Under the pieces are notes generated by a model. That model had not been told where the DNA came from. It saw only the letters and a list, made by a program, of their open reading frames with translations, and did no database searches. This document shows positions 3,478 to 24,754 of a stretch of 64,000 nt of DNA, piece after piece. A program made the position numbers and the translations under genes. The first letter of the stretch is position 1. Each line of letters opens with the position of its first letter. Source of the stretch: Escherichia coli. Lineage in GTDB: Bacteria > Pseudomonadota > Gammaproteobacteria > Enterobacterales > Enterobacteriaceae. The stretch lies in the NCBI RefSeq assembly GCF_003334815.1, contig NZ_QOWO01000012.1. One strand, written 5' to 3'.

Positions 3478-4098
3478 TTATTTTTTCGCCGCAAAACGTG
3501 CCGCTGCTTCGTCCCAGTTCACCACGTTCCAGAACTCTTTAATGTAGTCCGGACGGCGGTTCTGGAATTTCAGGTAGTAAGCATGTTCCCACACATCCAG
3601 GCCCATAATCGGGAAGCCGGAAGCGCCAGAAATAGCTTCACCCATCAGCGGAGAATCCTGGTTAGCAGTAGAAACCACCGCCAGTTTATCGCCTTTCAGC
3701 ACCAGCCATGCCCAGCCGGAACCAAAGCGGGAAGCTGCCGCTTTTTCAAATTCTGCTTTGAAGTTATCAACGGAGCCGAAGTCACGTTCGATAGCCGCTT
3801 TCAGGTCACCCTGCAGGGTGGTGCCTTTTTTCAGACCTTTCCAGAACAGGCTGTGGTTAGCGTGACCGCCAGCGTTGTTGCGCAGTACGGTTTTCTTGTC
3901 TGCTGGCAGCTGGTCCAGTTTGGTGATCAGCTCTTCAACCGGCAGGTTGGCAAATTCTGGCAGGCTTTCCAGCGCCGCGTTGGCGTTGTTTACGTAGGTC
4001 TGATGGTGTTTGGTGTGGTGGATTTCCATGGTCTGCTTATCGAAGTGCGGTTCCAGGGCATCGTAAGCATACGGCAGGGATGGCAGGGTATAGCTCAT
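3478..4098 (-). CDS. sodA: Manganese superoxide dismutase SodA
   Basis: ORF 3478..4104; ATG at 4098 ([20 protein letters not shown]...) with GGAGATG SD; 206 aa; Mn/Fe-SOD signature DVWEHAYY present. Confidence 0.97.
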
Positions 4099-4382
4099 AT
4101 TCATCTCCAGTATTGTCGGGCGGCCGATTGTTAATGCCGCGTAAGCAGTTGGTTCATTATAGTTAATTAAATGATATTGAAAATGATTATCAATGCCGTA
4201 CTTTTCGTAAGGGTATGGTTTTGCAGGAAAATGCCCGAGATGTGAAGCAAATCACCCACTTAATGCCGTGATTGCCAGTAAATCGACAACGGCGGCAACA
4301 GGCGAAAGGTTAATCGACAGCACGATTTTTACACTCATCTCGTCGGAGATGTGACGCGACGAAAAATGATGAGGATAAGAAG

Positions 4383-5417
4383 ATGAGTAACGCGATTACG
4401 ATGGGGATATTTTGGCATTTGATCGGCGCGGCCAGTGCAGCCTGTTTTTACGCTCCGTTCAAAAAAGTAAAAAAATGGTCATGGGAAACCATGTGGTCAG
4501 TCGGTGGGATTGTTTCGTGGATTATTCTGCCGTGGGCCATCAGCGCCCTGTTACTACCGAATTTCTGGGCGTATTACAGCTCGTTTAGTCTCTCTACGCT
4601 ACTGCCTGTTTTTCTGTTCGGCGCTATGTGGGGGATCGGTAATATCAACTACGGCCTGACCATGCGTTATCTCGGCATGTCGATGGGAATTGGCATCGCC
4701 ATTGGCATTACGTTGATTGTCGGTACGCTGATGACGCCAATTATCAACGGCAATTTCGATGTGTTGATTAGCACCGAAGGCGGACGCATGACGTTGCTCG
4801 GCGTTCTGGTGGCGCTGATTGGCGTAGGGATTGTAACTCGCGCCGGGCAGTTGAAAGAGCGCAAGATGGGCATTAAAGCCGAAGAGTTCAATCTGAAAAA
4901 AGGGCTGGTGCTGGCGGTGATGTGCGGCATTTTCTCTGCCGGGATGTCCTTTGCGATGAACGCCGCAAAACCGATGCATGAAGCCGCTGCCGCACTTGGC
5001 GTCGATCCACTGTATGTCGCTCTGCCAAGCTATGTTGTCATCATGGGCGGCGGCGCGATCATTAACCTCGGTTTCTGTTTTATTCGTCTGGCAAAAGTGA
5101 AGGATTTGTCGCTAAAAGCCGACTTCTCGCTGGCAAAATCGCTGATCATTCACAATGTGTTACTCTCGACACTGGGCGGGTTGATGTGGTATCTGCAATT
5201 CTTTTTCTATGCCTGGGGCCACGCCCGCATTCCGGCGCAGTATGACTACATCAGTTGGATGCTGCATATGAGTTTCTATGTATTGTGCGGCGGTATCGTC
5301 GGGCTGGTGCTGAAAGAGTGGAACAATGCAGGACGCCGTCCGGTAACGGTGTTGAGCCTCGGTTGTGTGGTGATTATTGTCGCCGCTAACATCGTCGGCA
5401 TCGGCATGGCGAATTAA
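4383..5417 (+). CDS. rhaT: L-rhamnose-proton symporter RhaT
   Basis: 344-aa ORF, ATG 4383 with GAGGA SD; translation recognised as RhaT. Confidence 0.95.
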
Positions 5418-6262
5418 TCTTTCTGCGAATTGAGATGACGCCACTGGCTGGGCGTCATCCCGGTTTCCCGGGTAAACACCACCGAAAAATAGTTACTATC
5501 TTCAAAGCCACATTCGGTCGAAATATCACTGATTAACAGGCGGCTATGCTGGAGAAGATATTGCGCATGACACACTCTGACCTGTCGCAGATATTGATTG
5601 ATGGTCATTCCAGTCTGCTGGCGAAATTGCTGACGCAAAACGCGCTCACTGCACGATGCCTCATCACAAAATTTATCCAGCGCAAAGGGACTTTTCAGGC
5701 TAGCCGCCAGCCGGGTAATCAGCTTATCCAGCAACGTTTCGCTGGATGTTGGCGGCAACGAATCACTGGTGTAACGATGGCGATTCAGCAACATCACCAA
5801 CTGCCCGAACAGCAACTCAGCCATTTCGTTAGCAAACGGCACATGCTGACTACTTTCATGCTCAAGCTGACCGATAACCTGCCGCGCCTGCGCCATCCCC
5901 ATGCTACCTAAGCGCCAGTGTGGTTGCCCTGCGCTGGCGTTAAATCCCGGAATCGCCCCCTGCCAGTCAAGATTCAGCTTCAGACGCTCCGGGCAATAAA
6001 TAATATTCTGCAAAACCAGATCGTTAACGGAAGCGTAGGAGTGTTTATCGTCAGCATGAATGTAAAAGAGATCGCCACGGGTAATGCGATAAGGGCGATC
6101 GTTGAGTACATGCAGGCCATTACCGCGCCAGACAATCACCAGCTCACAAAAATCATGTGTATGTTCAGCAAAGACATCTTGCGGATAACGGTCAGCCACA
6201 GCGACTGCCTGCTGGTCGCTGGCAAAAAAATCATCTTTGAGAAGTTTTAACTGATGCGCCAC
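5414..6262 (-). CDS. rhaR: AraC-family rhamnose regulator RhaR
   Basis: ORF 5414..6436; recalled RhaR N-terminus [13 protein letters not shown] corresponds to a GTG start at 6262, 73 nt after the rhaS stop; C-terminal AraC-type HTH. Confidence 0.85.
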
Positions 6263-6335
6263 CGTGGCTACCTCGGCCAGAGAACGAAGTTGATTATTCG
6301 CAATATGGCGTACAAATACGTTGAGAAGATTCGCG

Positions 6336-7172
6336 TTATTGCAGAAAGCCATCCCGTCCCTGGCGAATATCACGCGGTGACCAGTTAAACTCTCGGCGAA
6401 AAAGCGTCGAAAAGTGGTTACTGTCGCTGAATCCACAGCGATAGTCGATGTCAGTAACGCTGGCCTCGCTGTGGCGTAGCAGATGTCGGGCTTTCATCAG
6501 TCGCAGGCGGTTCAGGTATCGCTGAGGCGTCAGTCCCGTTTGCTGCTTAAGCTGCCGATGTAGCGTACGCAGTGAAAGAGAAAATTGATCCGCCACGGCA
6601 TCCCAATTCACCTCATCGGCAAAATGGTCCTCCAGCCAGGCCAGAAGCAAGTTGAGACGTGATGCGCTGTTTTCCAGGTTCTCCTGCAAACTGCTTTTAC
6701 GCAGCAAGAGCAGTAATTGCATAAACAAGATCTCGCGACTGGCGGTCGAGGGTAAATCATTTTCCCCTTCCTGCTGTTCCATCTGTGCAACCAGCTGTCG
6801 CACCTGCTGCAATACGCTGTGGTTAACGCGCCAGTGAGACGGATACTGCCCATCCAGCTCTTGTGGCAGCAACTGATTCAGCCCGGCGAGAAACTGAAAT
6901 CGATCCGGCGAGCGATACAGCACATTGGTCAGACACAGATTATCGGTATGTTCATACAGATGCCGATCATGATCGCGTACGAAACAGACCGTGCCACCGG
7001 TGATGGTATAGGGCTGCCCATTAAACACATGAATACCCGTGCCATGTTCGACAATCACAATTTCATGAAAATCATGATGATGTTCAGGAAAATCCGCCTG
7101 CGGGAGCCGGGGTTCTATCGCCACGGACGCGTTACCAGACGGAAAAAAATCCACACTATGTAATACGGTCAT
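6336..7172 (-). CDS. rhaS: AraC-family rhamnose activator RhaS
   Basis: 278-aa [26 protein letters not shown]... recognised as RhaS; cupin N-domain plus AraC HTH. Confidence 0.93.
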
Positions 7173-10185
<3,013 letters not shown>

Positions 10186-10190
10186 ACACT

Positions 10191-10414
10191 GCCGGATGCG
10201 GCGCGAGCGCCTTATCCGGCCTACGGGTCGGCAACAGTTGTAGGCCTGATAAGACGCGACAGCGTCGCATCAGGCATTGATTGCCGGATGCGGCACAAGT
10301 GCCTTATCCGGCCTACAGGTCGGCAATAGTTGTAGGCCTGATAAGACGCGACAGCGTCGCATCAGGCATTGATTGCCGGATGCGGCGCGAGCGCCTTATC
10401 CGGCCTACGGGTCG
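10191..10414. repeat. Tandem BIME: about 2.4 copies of a 92-bp unit of paired inverted REPs
   Basis: gccggatgcggc...cttatccggcctac...gtaggcctgataagacgcgacagcgtcgcatcaggca recurs with period 92 (unit starts 10191, 10283, 10375). Confidence 0.9.
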
Positions 10415-10451
10415 TGCATCCGACAACACCGAATTTACAGGAACACAGAAC

Positions 10452-17874: not shown

Positions 17875-18708
17875 TTAATTGCTCAAACGCTGCGGATGGG
17901 TATAAACCGTTGCCCGACCCGGTTTACAAAAACCTACCAGTGTCAGATTACAGCGCTCAGCCACTTCTACAGCAAGCGTGGTCGCGGCAGACACCGCAAA
18001 CAAAATCTCTACGCCGCACATCGCCGACTTTTGCACCATTTCATAACTGGCACGACTGGAAACCAGTACCGCACCTTGCTGCCAGCTTTCCCCTTCTTGT
18101 GACCGGCGGCCTAACAGTTTGTCCAGCGCCACATGGCGACCCACGTCTTCATGCCCGCCGACCAGTTCGCCAGATGGCAACATCCAGGCAGCGGCGTGAG
18201 TACAACCAGTCAGTTGCCCCACTGGCTGAAAATCGTTGAGATGACGTAATGCATCATCCAGTTTGTTGAGATCAAACGTCTGGGTGAACGGTAGCGGCTG
18301 CACCGGTTTTCCGATGTCATTAAGTTGCTCCACGCCGCATACGCCACAGCCCGTACGTCCCGCCAGCGCCCGGCGGCGCTCCTTCAACCCCATAAAGCGG
18401 CGGCTGGAAAGCTCAATTTGTACTTCAAGACCATTACAGGAAGGAACGACATCCATGCCGAAGATATCGCGCGGACTTTCGATAATCCCCTCGGAAAGCG
18501 AAAAACCGAGCGCAAAGTACTCAAGGTCTTTGGGCGACGCCATCATCACCACATGCGAAATGCCGTTGTAGACCAGCGCAACGGGAACTTCTTCCGCGAC
18601 CTCATCTAACCGTGGGTGTTGTAAATCATCACGCCGCCATAACTCAATTTGATGAACACCTGTGATATTTGTCACATTTTCGATTTCTTTTCGCTGTGTT
18701 TTTTTCAC
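17875..18708 (-). CDS. fdhD: Formate dehydrogenase sulfurtransferase FdhD
   Basis: 277-aa [21 protein letters not shown]... recognised as FdhD; the start codon appears to be GTG. Confidence 0.92.
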
Positions 18709-18901
18709 TTTCTCTTAACCAGATAAGAACACACACACCAACATTATGGTATTCTGTTACAAACCCTTCCTGGATGGAGGGAAATTGAGCCAATTCTGGA
18801 CCTTTGCGGCCCCTTCCGCAAAGAAAAATAACTCCCACTCCCTGCACACGCAGCAAGCGAATGTAAATGGGACGTGACAATGTCGAAACAAGGAGCAATC
18901 C

Positions 18902-21900
18902 ATGCAGGTCAGCAGAAGGCAGTTCTTTAAGATCTGCGCTGGCGGTATGGCAGGCACCACGGCAGCGGCACTGGGTTTTGCACCCAGCGTAGCACTCGCG
19001 GAAACCCGGCAGTATAAACTGCTGCGCACCCGCGAAACCCGTAATACCTGCACCTATTGTTCCGTAGGCTGTGGGCTGTTGATGTACAGCCTCGGTGACG
19101 GAGCAAAAAACGCCAAAGCATCTATCTTCCATATCGAAGGCGATCCGGATCACCCGGTCAACCGCGGTGCACTTTGTCCGAAAGGCGCTGGCCTGGTGGA
19201 TTTCATCCACTCCGAAAGCCGTCTGAAGTTTCCGGAATACCGTGCGCCAGGTTCTGATAAATGGCAGCAAATCAGTTGGGAAGAGGCGTTTGATCGCATC
19301 GCCAAACTGATGAAAGAAGACCGCGATGCTAACTACATTGCGCAAAACGCCGAAGGCGTGACTGTTAACCGCTGGCTCTCCACCGGGATGCTGTGTGCTT
19401 CCGCGTCGAGTAACGAAACCGGCTATTTAACGCAAAAATTCTCCCGCGCGCTGGGTATGCTCGCGGTCGACAACCAGGCGCGTGTCTGACACGGACCAAC
19501 GGTAGCAAGTCTTGCTCCAACATTTGGTCGCGGTGCGATGACCAACCACTGGGTCGACATCAAGAACGCCAACCTCGTCGTGGTGATGGGCGGTAACGCC
19601 GCTGAAGCTCACCCGGTCGGGTTCCGCTGGGCGATGGAAGCCAAAATTCACAACGGCGCGAAGCTGATTGTGATCGATCCTCGCTTTACGCGTACGGCGG
19701 CGGTAGCTGACTACTATGCCCCTATTCGTTCCGGTACTGACATTGCTTTCCTGTCAGGCGTATTGCTGTACCTGCTGAACAATGAAAAATTCAACCGCGA
19801 ATACACCGAAGCCTATACCAACGCCAGCCTGATCGTGCGTGAGGATTACGGCTTTGAAGATGGCCTGTTCACCGGCTACGACGCGGAAAAACGCAAGTAC
19901 GATAAATCCTCCTGGACTTATGAACTGGACGAAAACGGCTTCGCCAAACGCGATACCACGCTGCAACATCCGCGCTGCGTGTGGAACTTGCTGAAACAGC
20001 ACGTTTCCCGCTACACGCCAGATGTGGTTGAAAACATCTGTGGTACGCCAAAAGACGCGTTCCTGAAAGTCTGCGAATACATCGCAGAAACCAGTGCTCA
20101 CGATAAAACTGCCTCGTTCCTGTATGCCCTCGGCTGGACGCAACACTCCGTTGGTGCGCAAAACATTCGTACGATGGCGATGATCCAGCTGCTGCTCGGC
20201 AATATGGGGATGGCAGGCGGCGGCGTTAACGCCCTGCGCGGTCACTCCAATATTCAGGGGCTGACGGACCTGGGGCTGCTGTCGCAGAGCCTGCCAGGTT
20301 ACATGACGCTGCCAAGCGAGAAGCAGACCGATCTGCAAACCTACCTTACCGCCAACACGCCAAAACCGCTGCTGGAAGGCCAGGTAAACTACTGGGGCAA
20401 CTACCCGAAATTCTTCGTCTCTATGATGAAGGCCTTCTTTGGTGATAAAGCGACGGCGGAAAATAGCTGGGGCTTTGACTGGTTGCCGAAGTGGGATAAA
20501 GGCTACGACGTCCTGCAATACTTCGAGATGATGAAAGAGGGCAAGGTCAATGGCTATATCTGCCAGGGCTTTAACCCTGTTGCCTCATTCCCGAACAAAA
20601 ACAAAGTGATCGGTTGTCTGTCGAAACTGAAGTTCCTCGTCACCATCGACCCACTGAACACTGAAACCTCTAACTTCTGGCAGAACCACGGTGAGCTGAA
20701 CGAAGTTGACTCGTCGAAGATCCAGACCGAAGTGTTCCGTCTGCCATCGACCTGCTTCGCGGAAGAGAACGGTTCTATCGTTAACTCAGGTCGCTGGTTA
20801 CAGTGGCACTGGAAAGGTGCGGACGCCCCGGGGATTGCGCTGACTGACGGCGAGATCCTCTCCGGTATCTTCCTGCGCTTGCGCAAGATGTATGCCGAAC
20901 AGGGTGGCGCGAACCCGGACCAGGTGCTGAACATGACATGGAACTACGCCATTCCGCATGAGCCATCTTCAGAAGAAGTGGCGATGGAGAGCAACGGTAA
21001 GGCGCTGGCCGATATTACCGATCCGGCAACCGGTGCGGTTATCGTCAAGAAAGGCCAACAACTTAGTTCGTTCGCCCAATTGCGCGATGACGGTACAACC
21101 TCCTGTGGCTGCTGGATTTTCGCCGGTAGCTGGACGCCGGAAGGCAACCAGATGGCACGCCGTGATAACGCCGATCCGTCTGGCCTCGGTAACACGCTGG
21201 GCTGGGCATGGGCATGGCCGCTTAACCGCCGCATTCTGTATAACCGCGCCTCCGCAGATCCGCAGGGTAACCCGTGGGATCCGAAGCGTCAGTTGCTGAA
21301 ATGGGACGGCACTAAGTGGACCGGCTGGGATATTCCGGACTACAGCGCAGCGCCTCCGGGTAGCGGCGTCGGGCCGTTTATCATGCAGCAGGAAGGCATG
21401 GGGCGTCTGTTTGCCCTCGATAAGATGGCGGAAGGTCCGTTCCCGGAACACTACGAGCCGTTTGAAACGCCGCTGGGAACTAACCCGCTGCATCCAAACG
21501 TTATCTCGAACCCGGCTGCACGTATCTTTAAAGACGACGCCGAAGCATTGGGTAAAGCCGATAAGTTCCCGTATGTCGGAACCACCTATCGTCTGACCGA
21601 GCACTTCCACTACTGGACCAAACACGCGCTGTTGAACGCGATTTTGCAGCCAGAGCAGTTTGTGGAAATCGGGGAGTCGCTGGCGAATAAACTTGGCATT
21701 GCCCAGGGCGATACCGTGAAAGTCTCCTCCAACCGTGGCTATATCAAAGCCAAAGCGGTGGTGACCAAACGTATTCGCACGCTGAAAGCGAACGGCAAAG
21801 ATATCGATACCATCGGTATTCCGATTCACTGGGGCTATGAAGGCGTAGCTAAAAAAGGCTTTATTGCCAATACTTTAACGCCATTCGTTGGTGATGCGAA

Positions 21901-21952
21901 CACGCAGACGCCGGAGTTTAAGTCCTTCCTTGTGAATGTGGAAAAGGTGTAA
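18902..21952 (+). CDS. fdoG: Formate dehydrogenase-O catalytic subunit FdoG (selenoprotein; in-frame UGA at 19487-19489 read as Sec)
   Basis: ORFs 18902..19489 and 19538..21952 are in the same frame; joined they give 1016 aa. Sequence across the TGA reads ...ARV-U-HGPTVASLAPTFGRGAMTNHW, the conserved molybdopterin FDH active-site region. N-terminal twin-arginine signal (SRRQFFK...ALA). Confidence 0.93.
19487..19489 (+). other. Selenocysteine (UGA) recoding codon of fdoG
   Basis: In-frame TGA within the conserved active-site motif; reading frame continues for 820 further codons. Confidence 0.9.
19490..19530 (+). promoter_or_regulatory. Putative bacterial SECIS stem-loop immediately 3' of the UGA
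   Basis: cacggaccaacggtagcaagtcttgctccaacatttggtcg can fold (gcaag/cttgc apical stem with GUC-containing loop), resembling the fdhF-type SECIS; fold not computed. Confidence 0.6.
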
Positions 21953-21964
21953 CGGAGACGACAT

Positions 21965-22867
21965 ATGGCTTATCAATCTCAAGATATCATTCGTCGTTCC
22001 GCGACTAACGGTCTGACCCCCGCGCCTCAGGCGCGGGACTTCCAGGAAGAAGTGGCGAAACTCATCGACGTTACCACCTGTATCGGCTGTAAAGCCTGTC
22101 AGGTGGCGTGTTCAGAGTGGAACGACATTCGCGATACCGTCGGCAATAACATTGGGGTGTACGACAACCCCAATGATTTAAGCGCCAAATCGTGGACGGT
22201 AATGCGCTTCTCGGAAGTGGAGCAGAACGACAAACTGGAATGGCTGATCCGCAAAGACGGCTGTATGCACTGTTCCGATCCAGGCTGCCTGAAAGCGTGC
22301 CCGGCGGAAGGTGCAATTATTCAGTATGCCAACGGTATCGTCGACTTCCAGTCCGAGCAGTGCATTGGCTGCGGTTATTGCATTGCGGGCTGTCCGTTCG
22401 ACATTCCGCGCCTCAACCCGGAAGACAACCGCGTCTACAAATGTACGCTGTGCGTTGACCGCGTGGTGGTTGGGCAAGAACCAGCCTGCGTGAAGACCTG
22501 CCCAACGGGCGCGATTCACTTCGGTACGAAAGAGTCGATGAAAACGCTGGCGAGCGAGCGCGTTGCTGAGCTGAAAACCCGCGGTTACGACAATGCGGGT
22601 CTGTACGATCCGGCAGGCGTCGGTGGTACACACGTCATGTACGTGCTGCACCATGCTGACAAGCCAAATCTGTATCATGGCTTGCCGGAGAACCCGGAAA
22701 TCAGCGAAACCGTGAAATTCTGGAAAGGCATCTGGAAACCGCTCGCGGCTGTTGGCTTTGCGGCTACCTTTGCGGCCAGTATCTTCCACTACGTGGGTGT
22801 CGGTCCGAACCGTGCGGATGAGGAAGAGAATAATCTGCACGAAGAGAAAGACGAGGAGCGCAAATGA
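21965..22867 (+). CDS. fdoH: Formate dehydrogenase-O iron-sulfur subunit FdoH
   Basis: 300-aa ORF with multiple CxxCxxCxxxCP ferredoxin motifs and a C-terminal hydrophobic anchor. Confidence 0.95.
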
Positions 22868-23499
22868 AACGACGTGACACCATCGTGCGCTACACCGCGC
22901 CGGAACGTATCAACCACTGGATCACCGCCTTCTGCTTCATCCTGGCGGCGGTGAGCGGGCTGGGCTTTTTGTTCCCGTCCTTCAACTGGTTGATGCAAAT
23001 CATGGGCACACCGCAGCTGGCGCGAATTCTGCACCCGTTTGTCGGCGTGGTTATGTTTGCCTCGTTCATCATCATGTTTTTCCGTTACTGGCATCACAAC
23101 CTAATCAATCGGGATGATATCTTTTGGGCGAAGAATATTCGTAAGATCGTCGTCAACGAGGAAGTAGGTGACACCGGGCGTTATAACTTCGGTCAGAAAT
23201 GCGTTTTCTGGGCGGCGATTATTTTCCTGGTTCTGCTGCTGGTGAGCGGCGTGATTATCTGGCGTCCTTATTTTGCGCCTGCTTTCTCAATCCCGGTGAT
23301 CCGATTCGCGTTAATGCTGCATTCATTTGCCGCAGTGGCGTTAATTGTGGTTATCATGGTGCATATCTACGCCGCCCTTTGGGTGAAAGGCACGATTACC
23401 GCCATGGTGGAAGGATGGGTTACCAGCGCCTGGGCGAAGAAACATCACCCGCGCTGGTACCGTGAGGTCCGCAAGACAACGGAAAAGAAAGCTGAATGA
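22864..23499 (+). CDS. fdoI: Formate dehydrogenase-O cytochrome b556 subunit FdoI
   Basis: 211-aa ORF with four hydrophobic helices and conserved His residues; start overlaps the fdoH stop (ATGA). Confidence 0.93.
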
Positions 23500-24425
23500 G
23501 TATTCGCATAATCCCGCAAGATGAGCTGGGTTCAAGCGAGAAACGTACGGCGGATATGATTCCGCCGTTATTGTTCCCTCGGCTCAAGAATTTATACAAC
23601 CGCCGCGCCGAGCGTCTGCGCGAGCTGGCAGAAAATAATCCTCTGGGTGATTACCTGCGCTTTGCTGCGCTTATCGCCCACGCCCAGGAAGTGGTGCTGT
23701 ACGACCATCCGCTGGAGATGGATCTGACTGCGCGCATTAAAGAAGCCAGCGCACAAGGCAAGCCCCCGCTGGATATTCACGTTCTGCCGCGTGATAAGCA
23801 CTGGCAAAAGCTGCTGATGGCGCTGATTGCTGAGCTGAAACCTGAAATGAGCGGCCCGGCGCTGGCAGTGATTGAGAATCTGGAGAAGGCATCGACTCAG
23901 GAGCTGGAAGATATGGCCAGCGCGCTGTTTGCCTCTGATTTCTCGTCCGTCAGCAGCGATAAAGCGCCGTTTATCTGGGCTGCACTGTCGCTCTACTGGG
24001 CGCAGATGGCCAATCTGATCCCCGGCAAAGCCCGCGCTGAATACGGCGAGCAACGTCAATATTGCCCGGTTTGTGGTTCTATGCCGGTGTCCAGCATGGT
24101 GCAAATTGGCACCACTCAGGGGCTACGTTACCTGCACTGCAACCTGTGTGAAACTGAATGGCACGTAGTGCGCGTAAAATGCAGCAACTGCGAGCAGAGC
24201 GGCAAACTGCATTACTGGTCGCTGGATGACGAACAGGCCGCGATTAAAGCCGAAAGCTGCGATGACTGCGACACTTACCTGAAAATTCTCTATCAGGAAA
24301 AAGATCCAAAAATCGAAGCCGTAGCAGATGACCTCGCCTCTCTGGTACTGGACGCACGAATGGAGCAAGAAGGCTATGCCCGCAGTTCCATCAACCCGTT
24401 CCTGTTTCCGGGTGAAGGAGAGTAA
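23496..24425 (+). CDS. fdhE: Formate dehydrogenase formation protein FdhE
   Basis: 309-aa ORF with CxxC pairs ([27 protein letters not shown]); start overlaps the fdoI stop. Confidence 0.93.
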
Positions 24426-24606
24426 TCTCTGACGTTTTCCGGGTGGCGCAGGTCGCCCGGATTACAGCTCATAGGGTGTGACGACACCATCTCTCGTATT
24501 CCGCGTTACCACCTCAAGCTATGCCGCCAGTGCCGGTTTGGCCTCAATTTACCCACCACCACATCAATAAGGTTATGGGCATGAGACTGATGACAAGCGT
24601 AAGATT

Positions 24607-24705
24607 GCCTGATGCGCTGCGCTTATCAGGCCTACCAATAAACTGCAATACATTGAATTTATACGACTTTGTAGGCCGGATAAGGCGTTCACGCCGCATC
24701 CGGCA
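24607..24705. repeat. REP elements downstream of fdhE
   Basis: gcctgatgcgctgcgcttatcaggcctac and gtaggccggataaggcgttcacgccgcatccggca. Confidence 0.85.
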
Positions 24706-24754
24706 TGAACAACGCGCACGTTGTCAGCAATCTGATTGACATCATTTTTTCCCA

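What the first reader, a model, noticed from the sequence alone, without database searches (positions are those of the whole stretch)
18902..19540. Selenocysteine recoding site in fdoG with a downstream stem-loop, explaining the split ORF
The ORF track splits the gene at an in-frame TGA (19487..19489). The flanking peptide ARV-U-HGPTVASLAPTFGRG is the conserved formate dehydrogenase active site, and the frame continues to a 1016-aa product. The 40 nt after the UGA can form a hairpin with a GUC-containing apical loop, as expected for a bacterial SECIS element. The N-terminus carries a twin-arginine signal (SRRQFFK), and the downstream fdoH, fdoI and fdhE genes overlap by 4 nt each.
Basis: partly seen in the sequence, partly recalled or inferred. 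Interest (0 to 1): 0.4.

Follow-up and report, generated by a model that had tools for sequence, protein, structure and literature searches.

The report
Known selenocysteine recoding site in fdoG
The in-frame TGA in this gene is the well-known selenocysteine codon of E. coli formate dehydrogenase O, followed by its recoding hairpin, so the finding is correct but is textbook biology.

Summary

**What the window is.** It is E. coli K-12-like DNA. The gene at 18902..21952 is 100% identical to fdoG (b3894), which reference genomes annotate as one CDS running through the TGA.

**The site.**
- TGA at 19487..19489 is codon 196 of a 1016-codon frame.
- It aligns with the non-standard residue (X196) of the solved FdnG structure 1kqf.
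- Rfam SECIS_3 matches 19484..19542 at 84.3 bits (gathering score 63).
- The predicted hairpin has a GUC apical loop, a bulged U17, and G23/U24 at the same distance from the UGA as in fdhF.

**Strength of the evidence.** Folding energy alone is not significant (z = -1.45). The comparative evidence is strong:
- In 47 distinct Sec-type homologues the upper helix is 96.7% paired, and 4 of its 7 pairs show compensatory changes.
- The four Cys-type homologues found lose this pairing.
- Across 21 enterobacterial loci, the SECIS region (codons 195-216) is the only long stretch of the gene with frozen synonymous sites.
- Published mass spectrometry found Sec196.

- fdoG and fdoH are separated by 12 nt and do not overlap.
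- The generic Tat-signal profile scores below its cut-off, although the SRRQFFK motif is present.

The parts
18902..21952 (+). fdoG, catalytic (alpha) subunit of formate dehydrogenase O. 1016 codons, including Sec196.
   Evidence: Translation. 100% identical to NC_000913.3 b3894. TIGR01553 1574.6 bits against cut-off 814.2. PDB 1kqf_A 1902 bits over residues 1-1015. Pfam Molybdop_Fe4S4, Molybdopterin and Molydop_binding.
18902..19000 (+). Coding region for the N-terminal twin-arginine (Tat) signal peptide, residues 1-33. It has SRRQFFK at residues 4-10 and ends in A-L-A before ETRQYK.
   Evidence: The motif is read directly from the translation. The region aligns with the N-terminus of FdnG/TIGR01553. 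The generic Tat profile TIGR01409 scores only 10.4 bits against a 16.7 cut-off. The cleavage site is inferred, not tested.
19487..19489 (+). UGA codon 196, decoded as selenocysteine.
   Evidence: It aligns with X196 of 1kqf. TGA is conserved at this position in 77 of 81 FdnG/FdoG-type loci from many phyla; the other 4 have TGY, coding Cys. Sec196 was seen by MS (PMC3636253).
19484..19542 (+). Bacterial SECIS element as delimited by the Rfam model SECIS_3 (RF01989).
   Evidence: 84.3 bits against gathering score 63, E = 2e-19, full-length match to model positions 1-59. E. coli fdnG gives the same score.
19501..19518 (+). Upper stem-loop, the presumed SelB-binding minihelix. It consists of G15-G16, bulged U17 (19503), the helix A18-A22 with U26-U30, then C31-C32. 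It starts 11 nt after the UGA.
   Evidence: MFE fold. RNAalifold recovers helix 18-22/26-30 independently. The helix is 96.7% paired in 47 distinct sequences and 4 of 7 pairs change on both sides. The spacing is the same as in fdhF. SelB binding itself is inferred from established knowledge of the fdhF SECIS.
19509..19511 (+). Apical loop G23-U24-C25. If the A22-U26 pair is open, the loop is A-G-U-C-U, 19508..19512.
   Evidence: G23 is present in 45 of 47 distinct Sec-type sequences. U24 is present in 47 of 47, although it is a third codon position in AGU or GGU.
19489..19499 (+). 5' strand of the lower stem (positions 3-13 from the U of UGA).
   Evidence: MFE fold. The helix is only 80.6-84.4% paired across homologues, and its register is ambiguous between the MFE and Rfam versions.
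19524..19534 (+). 3' strand of the lower stem (positions 38-48).
19484..19554 (+). Block of 71 nt with frozen synonymous sites. It is identical between fdoG and fdnG of E. coli and in most enterobacterial homologues. It extends 20 nt beyond the 3' end of the hairpin.
   Evidence: It is the longest identical run between the paralogues, which are 74.9% identical overall. Codons -1 to +21 are 0.95-1.0 identical, against 0.2-0.7 in the flanks. The identical run spans -3..+68 in most cross-genus comparisons. It is the only run of more than 2 degenerate codons at 0.9 identity or above in the whole gene.
21965..22867 (+). fdoH, iron-sulfur (beta) subunit. It starts 12 nt after the fdoG stop codon.
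   Evidence: TIGR01582 478.7 bits against 334.7. Junction. Annotation.
22864..23499 (+). fdoI, cytochrome b556 (gamma) subunit. ATGA overlap with fdoH.
   Evidence: NF007924 453.3 bits against 341. Junction.
23496..24425 (+). fdhE, formate dehydrogenase accessory protein. ATGA overlap with fdoI.
   Evidence: NF002925 604 bits against 426. Junction.
17875..18708 (-). [quoted passage not shown]
   Evidence: TIGR00129 340 bits against 140.9. Annotation. Role from PMC6239281.

Best explanation
This is the selenocysteine recoding site of fdoG, the catalytic subunit of the aerobically expressed formate dehydrogenase O of E. coli.

**Proposed mechanism.**
- When the ribosome reaches UGA196 (19487..19489), the mRNA just downstream presents a SECIS hairpin.
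- The upper stem-loop of that hairpin (19501..19518) has a bulged U17 and G23/U24 in the loop, and starts 11 nt after the UGA.
- The specialised elongation factor SelB binds this stem-loop while carrying Sec-tRNA(Sec), the selC product.
- SelB delivers the tRNA to the A site in competition with release factor 2, so selenocysteine is inserted and translation continues to the 1016-residue protein.
- Sec196 then becomes the protein ligand of the molybdenum in the bis-MGD cofactor.
- The protein is exported by the Tat pathway and works with FdoH and FdoI. FdhD and FdhE act as maturation factors.

**Shown here:** the codon, the frame, the gene identity, the family-level match of the RNA, its covariation and its synonymous-site constraint.

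**Taken from the literature or established knowledge:** SelB binding, competition with RF2, Mo ligation and Tat export.
For: **Sequence and identity**
- In-frame TGA at codon 196 of a continuous 1016-codon frame.
- 100% identity to fdoG b3894, annotated as one CDS across the TGA.
- TIGR01553 far above its cut-off.
- 1kqf_A aligns end to end, with its non-standard residue X196 opposite the TGA.

**RNA element**
- Rfam SECIS_3 at 19484..19542, 84.3 bits against a gathering score of 63. fdnG gives the same score, and fdhF hits the sister family SECIS_2 at 87.1 bits.
- Predicted hairpin with a GUC loop.
- All four criteria of the published bSECIS model are met (PMC13188914): a 3-nt loop starting with G-U, a 7-bp upper stem, 19 nt between the UGA and the loop, and MFE -14.6, against a required -7.5 or lower.
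- U17, G23 and U24 lie at the same distance from the UGA as in fdhF.

**Comparative evidence**
- Of 81 FdnG/FdoG-type loci found by a pattern that left the downstream sequence free, 77 have TGA and 4 have TGY.
- 43 of 47 distinct Sec-type sequences keep all 6 upper-stem pairs that were scored. The 4 Cys-type sequences keep 1-4.
- The upper helix is 96.7% paired, with 4 of 7 pairs changed on both sides. No shuffle out of 500 reached the observed covariation score, and slid controls pair at only 31-57%.
- RNAalifold recovers the apical helix independently.
- The 71 nt from 19484 are the longest identical run between fdoG and fdnG.
- Codons 195-216 are the only long stretch with frozen synonymous sites across 21 enterobacterial loci.
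- The 101 nt around the site are present in all 5426 complete E. coli genomes.

**Machinery and experiment**
- selA, selB and selC are annotated in the K-12 genome.
- MS identified VU196HGPTVASLAPTFGR and never Cys at 196. The same paper states that translation stops at codon 196 without Sec-tRNA(Sec) (PMC3636253).
- A selC mutant lacks Fdh-N/O activity (PMC3160892).
Against: - The thermodynamic stability of the hairpin is not exceptional: z = -1.45 for 49 nt and -0.59 for 101 nt. Cys-type homologues fold about as stably, with mean MFE -19.7 against -20.4 kcal/mol.
- The lower stem is only 80.6-84.4% paired across homologues, and its register differs between the MFE and Rfam structures.
- The diagnostic tryptic peptide is identical in FdoG and FdnG. 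The MS evidence therefore does not assign Sec196 to FdoG alone.
- SelB binding to this particular RNA was not tested here.
It was also selected on A-R(CGN)-V-[U/C]-H-G-P.
- Only four Cys-type FdnG-like sequences were available as a contrast.
Confidence: 0.97

Rival explanations
1. The TGA is a true stop. The locus would then be a split or decayed gene giving a 195-aa N-terminal fragment and, perhaps, a separately initiated 804-aa product from the ATG at 19538.
For: The mechanical ORF list shows exactly these two ORFs. Without Sec-tRNA(Sec), translation is reported to terminate at codon 196 (PMC3636253).
Against: - The TGA is conserved at the same codon in 77 loci from Proteobacteria, Acidobacteria, Actinomycetota and others.
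- It is present in all 5426 complete E. coli genomes.
- Homology to 1kqf is continuous across the site.
- No ribosome-binding context was sought or needed for 19538.
- The selenopeptide spanning the site was observed by MS.
Confidence: 0.01
2. The hairpin is only a by-product of encoding the conserved active-site peptide HGPTVASLAPTFGRG and has no RNA-level function. Recoding would then depend on something else.
For: - The energy z-score is unremarkable.
- Many invariant columns are first or second codon positions of invariant residues.
- Cys-type homologues fold with similar energy.
Against: - Third-position sites are constrained. G15 is present in 46 of 47 sequences and U24 in 47 of 47.
- The compensatory changes at pairs 18-30 and 21-27 are synonymous.
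- Cys-type homologues that encode a similar peptide lose the pairing, keeping 1-4 of 6 pairs.
- Synonymous sites are frozen only here in the 1016-codon gene.
Confidence: 0.015
3. The UGA is read through by a near-cognate tRNA (Trp or Cys) rather than by Sec-tRNA(Sec).
For: Low-level UGA read-through by tRNA-Trp is a general property of E. coli (established knowledge). Nothing specific to this site was found.
Against: - MS never found Cys at position 196 and did find Sec.
- A selC mutant lacks Fdh-N/O activity.
- The position aligns with Sec in solved homologues.
Confidence: 0.005

Closest known systems
SECIS of E. coli fdnG (formate dehydrogenase N alpha subunit), Rfam SECIS_3 RF01989
   Same: - The nucleotide sequence is identical for 71 nt, from 3 nt before the UGA to 68 nt from its first base.
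- The Rfam score is the same, 84.3 bits.
- The Sec codon number is the same, 196.
- The proteins are 77% identical.
   Different: - The host operon and its regulation differ. fdoGHI-fdhE is also expressed aerobically, whereas fdnGHI is induced by nitrate under anaerobiosis (PMC6239281).
- Outside the 71-nt block the genes are only about 75% identical.
SECIS of E. coli fdhF (formate dehydrogenase H), Rfam SECIS_2 RF01988, the experimentally dissected prototype
   Same: - The layout is the same: UGA, 11 nt, then a GG-U(bulge)-4-bp-stem minihelix.
- U17, G23 and U24 are at identical distances from the UGA.
- It lies inside the coding region at the same active-site position, ARV-U-HGP.
   Different: - It belongs to a different Rfam family. 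The window scores only 28.1 bits on SECIS_2 against a gathering score of 70, while fdhF scores 87.1 bits.
- The fdhF loop is the 4-nt GGUC. The fdoG loop is AGUCU, or GUC closed by A22-U26, with one extra nucleotide on the 3' side.
- The downstream peptide and the lower stem differ.
Published general bacterial SECIS model (bSECISearch consensus, as summarised in PMC13188914)
   Same: All four listed constraints are met:
- a loop of 3-9 nt;
- G followed by G or U at the start of the loop;
- 16-37 nt between the UGA and the loop (19 nt here);
- MFE of -7.5 kcal/mol or lower (-14.6 here).
   Different: None of substance. The model is permissive and would not by itself prove function.
Cys-type FdnG-like formate dehydrogenases (Snodgrassella, Vogesella and Orbaceae loci L019, L042, L064, L067)
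   Same: The active-site peptide is the same, ARV-C-HGP(T/S)VS(A/S)LA..(F/Y)GRGAMTN.
   Different: - They have TGY instead of TGA.
- The upper-stem pairing is lost, with 1-4 of 6 pairs kept.
- Three of the four lack G23 and U24 in the loop positions; L064 (AGT) retains both.

Membership tests
Bacterial SECIS element (Rfam SECIS_3, RF01989) | Covariance-model score at or above the curated gathering score. | tested here: met
   84.3 bits against 63, E = 2e-19, full-length match at 19484..19542.
Bacterial SECIS element (general bSECIS model) | An in-frame UGA at a position occupied by Sec or Cys in homologues. | tested here: met
   Codon 196 aligns with X196 of 1kqf. 77 TGA and 4 TGY were found among 81 FdnG-type loci.
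Bacterial SECIS element (general bSECIS model) | Stem-loop immediately downstream: apical loop of 3-9 nt, upper stem of 4-16 bp, G in the first two loop positions followed by G or U. | tested here: met
   Loop G-U-C at 19509..19511. Upper stem of 7 bp with bulged U17. Criteria from PMC13188914.
Bacterial SECIS element (general bSECIS model) | 16-37 nt between the UGA and the apical loop, and MFE of -7.5 kcal/mol or lower. | tested here: met
   19 nt (19490..19508). MFE -14.6 kcal/mol.
Bacterial SECIS element | The structure is supported by compensatory base changes across homologues. | tested here: met
   Upper helix: 96.7% paired, 4 of 7 pairs changed on both sides, no shuffle out of 500 reaching the observed covariation score. 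RNAalifold agrees. The lower helix is only weakly supported.
Bacterial SECIS element | Thermodynamic stability beyond that of shuffled sequence. | tested here: not met
z = -1.45, and 19 of 200 shuffles fold as well. z = -0.59 in a 101-nt context.
Bacterial SECIS element | Binds SelB and directs Sec insertion in vivo. | not testable with these tools
   Literature only. Sec196 peptide by MS (PMC3636253). A selC mutant lacks activity (PMC3160892). The peptide is shared with FdnG.
Bacterial SECIS element | [quoted passage not shown] | tested here: met
   selA, selB and selC are annotated in NC_000913.3. selD was not looked up. None of these genes lies in the window.
Formate dehydrogenase O/N alpha subunit (NCBIfam TIGR01553) | Whole-protein score above the curated cut-off, and the Mo-bisPGD enzyme domain set. 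| tested here: met
   1574.6 bits against 814.2. Pfam PF04879, PF00384 and PF01568. 1kqf_A 1902 bits.
fdoG specifically (rather than fdnG) | Identity to b3894 and the genomic context fdhD / fdoGHI-fdhE. | tested here: met
   100% identical to NC_000913.3 b3894. Neighbours fdhD, fdoH, fdoI and fdhE. FdoI hits NF007924 (cytochrome b556 subunit) at 453.3 bits, against 243.6 bits for the Fdh-N gamma model. PGAP records label the gene 'fdnG'; this is a naming artefact.
Twin-arginine (Tat) signal peptide | S/T-R-R-x-F-L-K motif followed by a hydrophobic stretch and an A-x-A site. | tested here: met
   S4-R-R-Q-F-F-K10, then ICAGGMAGTTAAALGFAPSVALA.
Twin-arginine (Tat) signal peptide | Generic Tat-signal profile (TIGR01409) above its cut-off. 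| tested here: not met
   10.4 bits against 16.7. Pfam reported no TAT_signal domain. Short signal profiles often miss true cases. Export itself was not testable here.

The most novel reading that the evidence does not exclude
In Enterobacterales the block of frozen synonymous sites (19484..19554) runs 20 nt beyond the 3' end of the predicted SECIS hairpin (19535..19554, GCG AUG ACC AAC CAC UGG GU). Its 3' boundary falls at the same position in most cross-genus and paralogue comparisons. This could mark an undescribed 3' extension of the recoding signal, for example a contact or spacing requirement for SelB or the ribosome after the hairpin. The alternatives are preference for optimal codons or recurrent fdnG/fdoG gene conversion.
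Probability: 0.12. Interest if true: 0.3.

Novelty: already known. Interest (0 to 1): 0.06.

Why it matters
It matters mainly as a check on the scan. A reader working from raw sequence correctly recognised a programmed UGA recoding event that naive ORF calling splits into two genes.

Biologically it adds nothing new. fdoG is one of only three E. coli genes that encode selenoproteins, and Sec196 with its SECIS is annotated, curated in Rfam and confirmed by mass spectrometry.

The one small addition is quantitative. The SECIS is the only stretch of the 1016-codon gene with frozen synonymous sites across Enterobacterales, and that frozen block is about 20 nt longer than the hairpin.

Tried and rejected
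- **Folding energy as a significance test.** Rejected as uninformative. z was -1.45 and -0.59, and Cys-type homologues fold equally well.
- **Choosing between the Rfam and MFE registers of the lower stem.** Neither is clearly better, at 84.4% against 80.6% paired with little covariation. I report the lower stem as weakly supported.
- **Generic Tat-signal profiles.** TIGR01409 and TIGR02811 scored below their cut-offs, and Pfam gave no TAT_signal hit. The Tat claim rests on the motif and on homology.
- **Primary papers.** I tried to read Sawers 1991 (PubMed 1650339) and Abaibou 1995 (PubMed 8522521). Neither is held in the library.
- **Gene conversion alone as the cause of the fdoG/fdnG identity.** Considered unlikely. 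The same 71-nt block is identical across genera whose flanks are only 74-82% identical, with the same boundaries.
- **Exact provenance.** The window is not an exact copy of MG1655. It has about 15 scattered SNPs and a repeat copy-number difference of roughly 184 nt. None of these falls in fdoG.
Full report
**1. What is in the sequence**

The window carries an ATG at 18902, preceded by AAGGAG, and an in-frame TGA at 19487..19489. The mechanical ORF list therefore breaks the gene into 18902..19489 (195 aa) and 19538..21952 (804 aa). Translated straight through, the frame has a single internal stop at codon 196 and ends at TAA 21950..21952. That gives 1016 codons, with the peptide ...DNQARV-U-HGPTVASLAPTFGRGAMTN around the stop.

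Downstream lie fdoH (21965..22867), fdoI (22864..23499) and fdhE (23496..24425). The fdoH/fdoI and fdoI/fdhE junctions are ATGA overlaps. Residues 4-10 are SRRQFFK.

**2. Identity**

The stretch 18700..22000 is 100% identical to several E. coli genomes, including K-12 MG1655, and is present in all 5426 complete E. coli genomes. The gene is base-for-base identical to fdoG b3894 of NC_000913.3, where it is annotated as one CDS running through the TGA. PGAP-annotated records call it 'fdnG', a naming quirk.

| Protein | Best family hit | Score (bits) | Cut-off (bits) |
|---|---|---|---|
| FdoG | NCBIfam TIGR01553 | 1574.6 | 814.2 |
| FdoH | TIGR01582 | 478.7 | 334.7 |
| FdoI | NF007924 | 453.3 | 341 |
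| FdhE | NF002925 | 604 | 426 |
| FdhD | TIGR00129 | 340 | 140.9 |

Pfam finds the Fe4S4, molybdopterin and dinucleotide-binding domains in FdoG. The closest solved structure is E. coli FdnG, 1kqf_A, at 1902 bits over residues 1-1015. Its non-standard residue X196 aligns with the TGA, as does the equivalent residue of the D. gigas enzyme 1h0h.

**3. The RNA element**

Rfam's SECIS_3 model (RF01989) matches 19484..19542 over its full length at 84.3 bits, against a gathering score of 63 (E = 2e-19). E. coli fdnG gives the same score. fdhF belongs to the sister family SECIS_2, where it scores 87.1 bits; the window scores only 28.1 bits on that model.

The minimum-energy fold of 19487..19535 is a hairpin of -14.6 kcal/mol. 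It has these parts:
- a lower stem, 19489..19499 paired with 19524..19534;
- an upper stem, G15-G16, bulged U17, then A18-A22 paired with U26-U30, then C31-C32 (19501..19518);
- the loop G23-U24-C25 (19509..19511).

The same hairpin appears when 101 nt are folded.

Compared with fdhF, the layout is the same: UGA, 11 nt, then the GG-U(bulge)-stem minihelix, with U17, G23 and U24 at identical distances from the UGA. fdoG has one extra nucleotide on the 3' side of the loop. The element meets all four constraints of the published bacterial SECIS model, namely loop size, G followed by G or U, 16-37 nt spacing (19 nt here) and MFE of -7.5 or lower (PMC13188914).

**4. Is it more than chance?**

Energy alone says no. 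z is -1.45, with 19 of 200 shuffles folding as well, and -0.59 in the larger context.

*Paralogue comparison.* Within E. coli K-12, fdoG and fdnG are 74.9% identical in DNA and 77% in protein. The longest identical run between them is 71 nt, and it starts at 19484. All 20 degenerate codons in codons 196-216 are identical, against 58% gene-wide. A run that long arose in 13 of 5000 shuffles.

*Homologues from other species.* A scan of one genome per species used a pattern covering only A-R-V-[TGA/TGY]-H-G-P and left the downstream bases free. They fell into three classes:

| Class | Loci | TGA | TGY |
|---|---|---|---|
| FdnG/FdoG-type | 81 | 77 | 4 |
| FdhF-type | 19 | 9 | 10 |
| Chance matches | 20 | 5 | 15 |

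- Among 47 distinct Sec-type FdnG sequences, 43 keep all six upper-stem pairs that were scored. The four Cys-type sequences keep 1-4.
- Mean folding energies do not differ, at -20.4 against -19.7 kcal/mol.

*Pair counts on the ungapped alignment A1.*
- The upper helix is 96.7% paired, and 4 of its 7 pairs change on both sides. Pair 18-30 is seen as G-C, A-U and C-G. Pair 21-27 is seen as A-U, C-G and G-C. Pair 19-29 is seen as G-C and U-G.
- No shuffle out of 500 reached the observed covariation score, and structures slid by 1-3 columns pair at only 31-57%.
- The changes at pairs 18-30 and 21-27 sit at synonymous third positions, so protein coding does not explain them.
- G15 and U24 are third codon positions, yet they are present in 46 of 47 and 47 of 47 sequences.
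- RNAalifold, run without my structure, recovers the apical helix and loop.
- The lower helix is weaker, at 80.6-84.4% paired with an ambiguous register. From my own recollection of the fdhF SECIS literature (not checked here), the upper minihelix is sufficient for SelB binding there, which would fit this.

*Synonymous-site profile.* Across 21 enterobacterial fdnG/fdoG loci the mean codon identity at 861 degenerate codons is 0.578. The only run longer than two codons at 0.9 or above is the 20-degenerate-codon run spanning codons 195-216. The sliding mean there is 0.99, against 0.576 with sd 0.089 elsewhere.

*Within the species.* The 101 nt around the site occur in all 5426 complete E. coli genomes, at 99% identity or above in 5425 of 5434 records.

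**5. Mechanism**

*Shown here:* the codon, the frame, the gene, the RNA family membership, covariation, synonymous-site constraint, and the presence of selA, selB and selC in the K-12 genome.

*Taken from the literature:*
- The three formate dehydrogenases are the only E. coli proteins that decode UGA as Sec.
- The peptide VU196HGPTVASLAPTFGR was found by MS, and Cys was never found at that position.
- Translation terminates at codon 196 without Sec-tRNA(Sec) (PMC3636253).
- A selC mutant lacks Fdh-N/O activity (PMC3160892).
- Sec ligates the bis-MGD molybdenum, and FdhD is needed for all three enzymes (PMC6239281).

*Inferred from the fdhF prototype:* SelB carrying Sec-tRNA(Sec) binds the 19501..19518 minihelix at the entrance of the mRNA channel while UGA196 is in the A site.

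*Caveat:* the diagnostic peptide is identical in FdoG and FdnG, so the MS result does not by itself assign Sec to FdoG.

**6. Rivals**

- A real stop or split gene is excluded by conservation, continuous homology and the selenopeptide.
- A hairpin that is only a by-product of coding is excluded by synonymous compensatory changes, loss of pairing in Cys forms, and the uniquely frozen block.
- Near-cognate read-through is excluded by the MS and selC data.

**7. Comparison with what is known, and novelty**

This is the annotated, Rfam-curated and experimentally supported SECIS of fdoG. It is identical to the fdnG element and is a close structural relative of the fdhF prototype. Novelty: already known. 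Interest is low.

The only point I could not find explained concerns the extent of the frozen block in Enterobacterales (19484..19554):
- It extends 20 nt past the hairpin.
- Its boundaries are the same (-3..+68) in most comparisons between genera, whose flanks are only 74-82% identical.
- Only four degenerate sites lie in the extension, and all use preferred codons, so codon bias is a sufficient mundane explanation.
- I give a functional 3' extension a probability of about 0.12.

**8. Seen in passing**

- **fdhD variant.** The window is not exactly MG1655. One SNP at 18653 changes FdhD Arg19 to His, and no complete E. coli genome matches those 107 nt at 100%.
- **Other differences from MG1655.** About 14 further SNPs and an extra stretch of roughly 184 nt made of ~92-nt repeats near 10190..10418 separate the window from NC_000913.3.
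- **Sub-threshold Rfam hit.** The model 'FdoG-1 5' UTR thermometer' matches 18695..18931 at 36.4 bits, against a gathering score of 50.
- **REP-like hits.** naRNA4 and ES036 hits lie downstream of fdhE at 24571..24710.

Noticed in passing
window 19535..19554 (within the frozen block 19484..19554): Synonymous sites stay frozen for 20 nt beyond the 3' end of the SECIS hairpin in Enterobacterales. The -3..+68 boundaries are the same in most cross-genus and fdoG/fdnG comparisons. Outside Enterobacterales these sites vary. The cause could be codon bias, gene conversion or an extra constraint, and is unresolved.
   Followed up: partly
window 18653 (fdhD, minus strand, codon 19): There is a single-base difference from MG1655, C to T on the + strand, which changes CGT to CAT and gives FdhD R19H. 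No complete E. coli genome among 5426 matches the surrounding 107 nt at 100%; the best match is 99.1%. It may be a private variant or a sequence error. Its effect is unknown.
   Followed up: partly
window 10190..10418 and scattered positions (3336, 4600, 6445, 7610, 9768, 14328, 26583, 31132, 36693, 44279, 44771, 53618, 60432, 61357): The window is the reverse complement of about NC_000913.3 4040724..4104723, but not an exact copy. It has about 15 scattered SNPs. It also has roughly 184 extra nt, two additional copies of a ~92-nt tandem repeat, near 10190..10418. No difference falls in fdoG.
   Followed up: partly
window 18695..18931 (+), the fdhD-fdoG intergenic region and the start of fdoG: A sub-threshold Rfam hit to RF02778 'FdoG-1 5' UTR thermometer': 36.4 bits against a gathering score of 50, E = 3.1e-06, over the full model length. 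It suggests sequence homology of the fdoG leader to a described thermosensor candidate. I did not test it.
   Followed up: no
window 24571..24710, downstream of fdhE: REP-like palindromic elements give sub-threshold Rfam hits: naRNA4 at 38.2 bits against 59.5, and ES036 at 36.8 bits against 37.6.
   Followed up: no
window 19481..19493: A small palindrome, CGUG-UCUGA-CACG, would place the UGA in a 5-nt loop. It appears in the 101-nt MFE fold and competes with the base of the lower SECIS stem. The Val codon GUC just before the UGA is 100% conserved in enterobacterial loci. It may be chance.
   Followed up: no
locus L001 (NZ_CP032667.1) 3703..6753, equivalent to window 18902..21952: PGAP-annotated RefSeq records label this gene 'fdnG / formate dehydrogenase-N subunit alpha', although its neighbours are fdoH and fdoI and NC_000913.3 calls it fdoG. 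The equivalog model TIGR01553 does not separate the two paralogues.
   Followed up: yes
loci L043 and L098 (Desulfovibrio/Mailhella-type FdhA): These Sec-type homologues (HGPTVPALAESFGRG) keep the TGA but do not form the fdoG-register upper stem, keeping only 1-2 of 6 pairs. They presumably use a differently placed SECIS.
   Followed up: no
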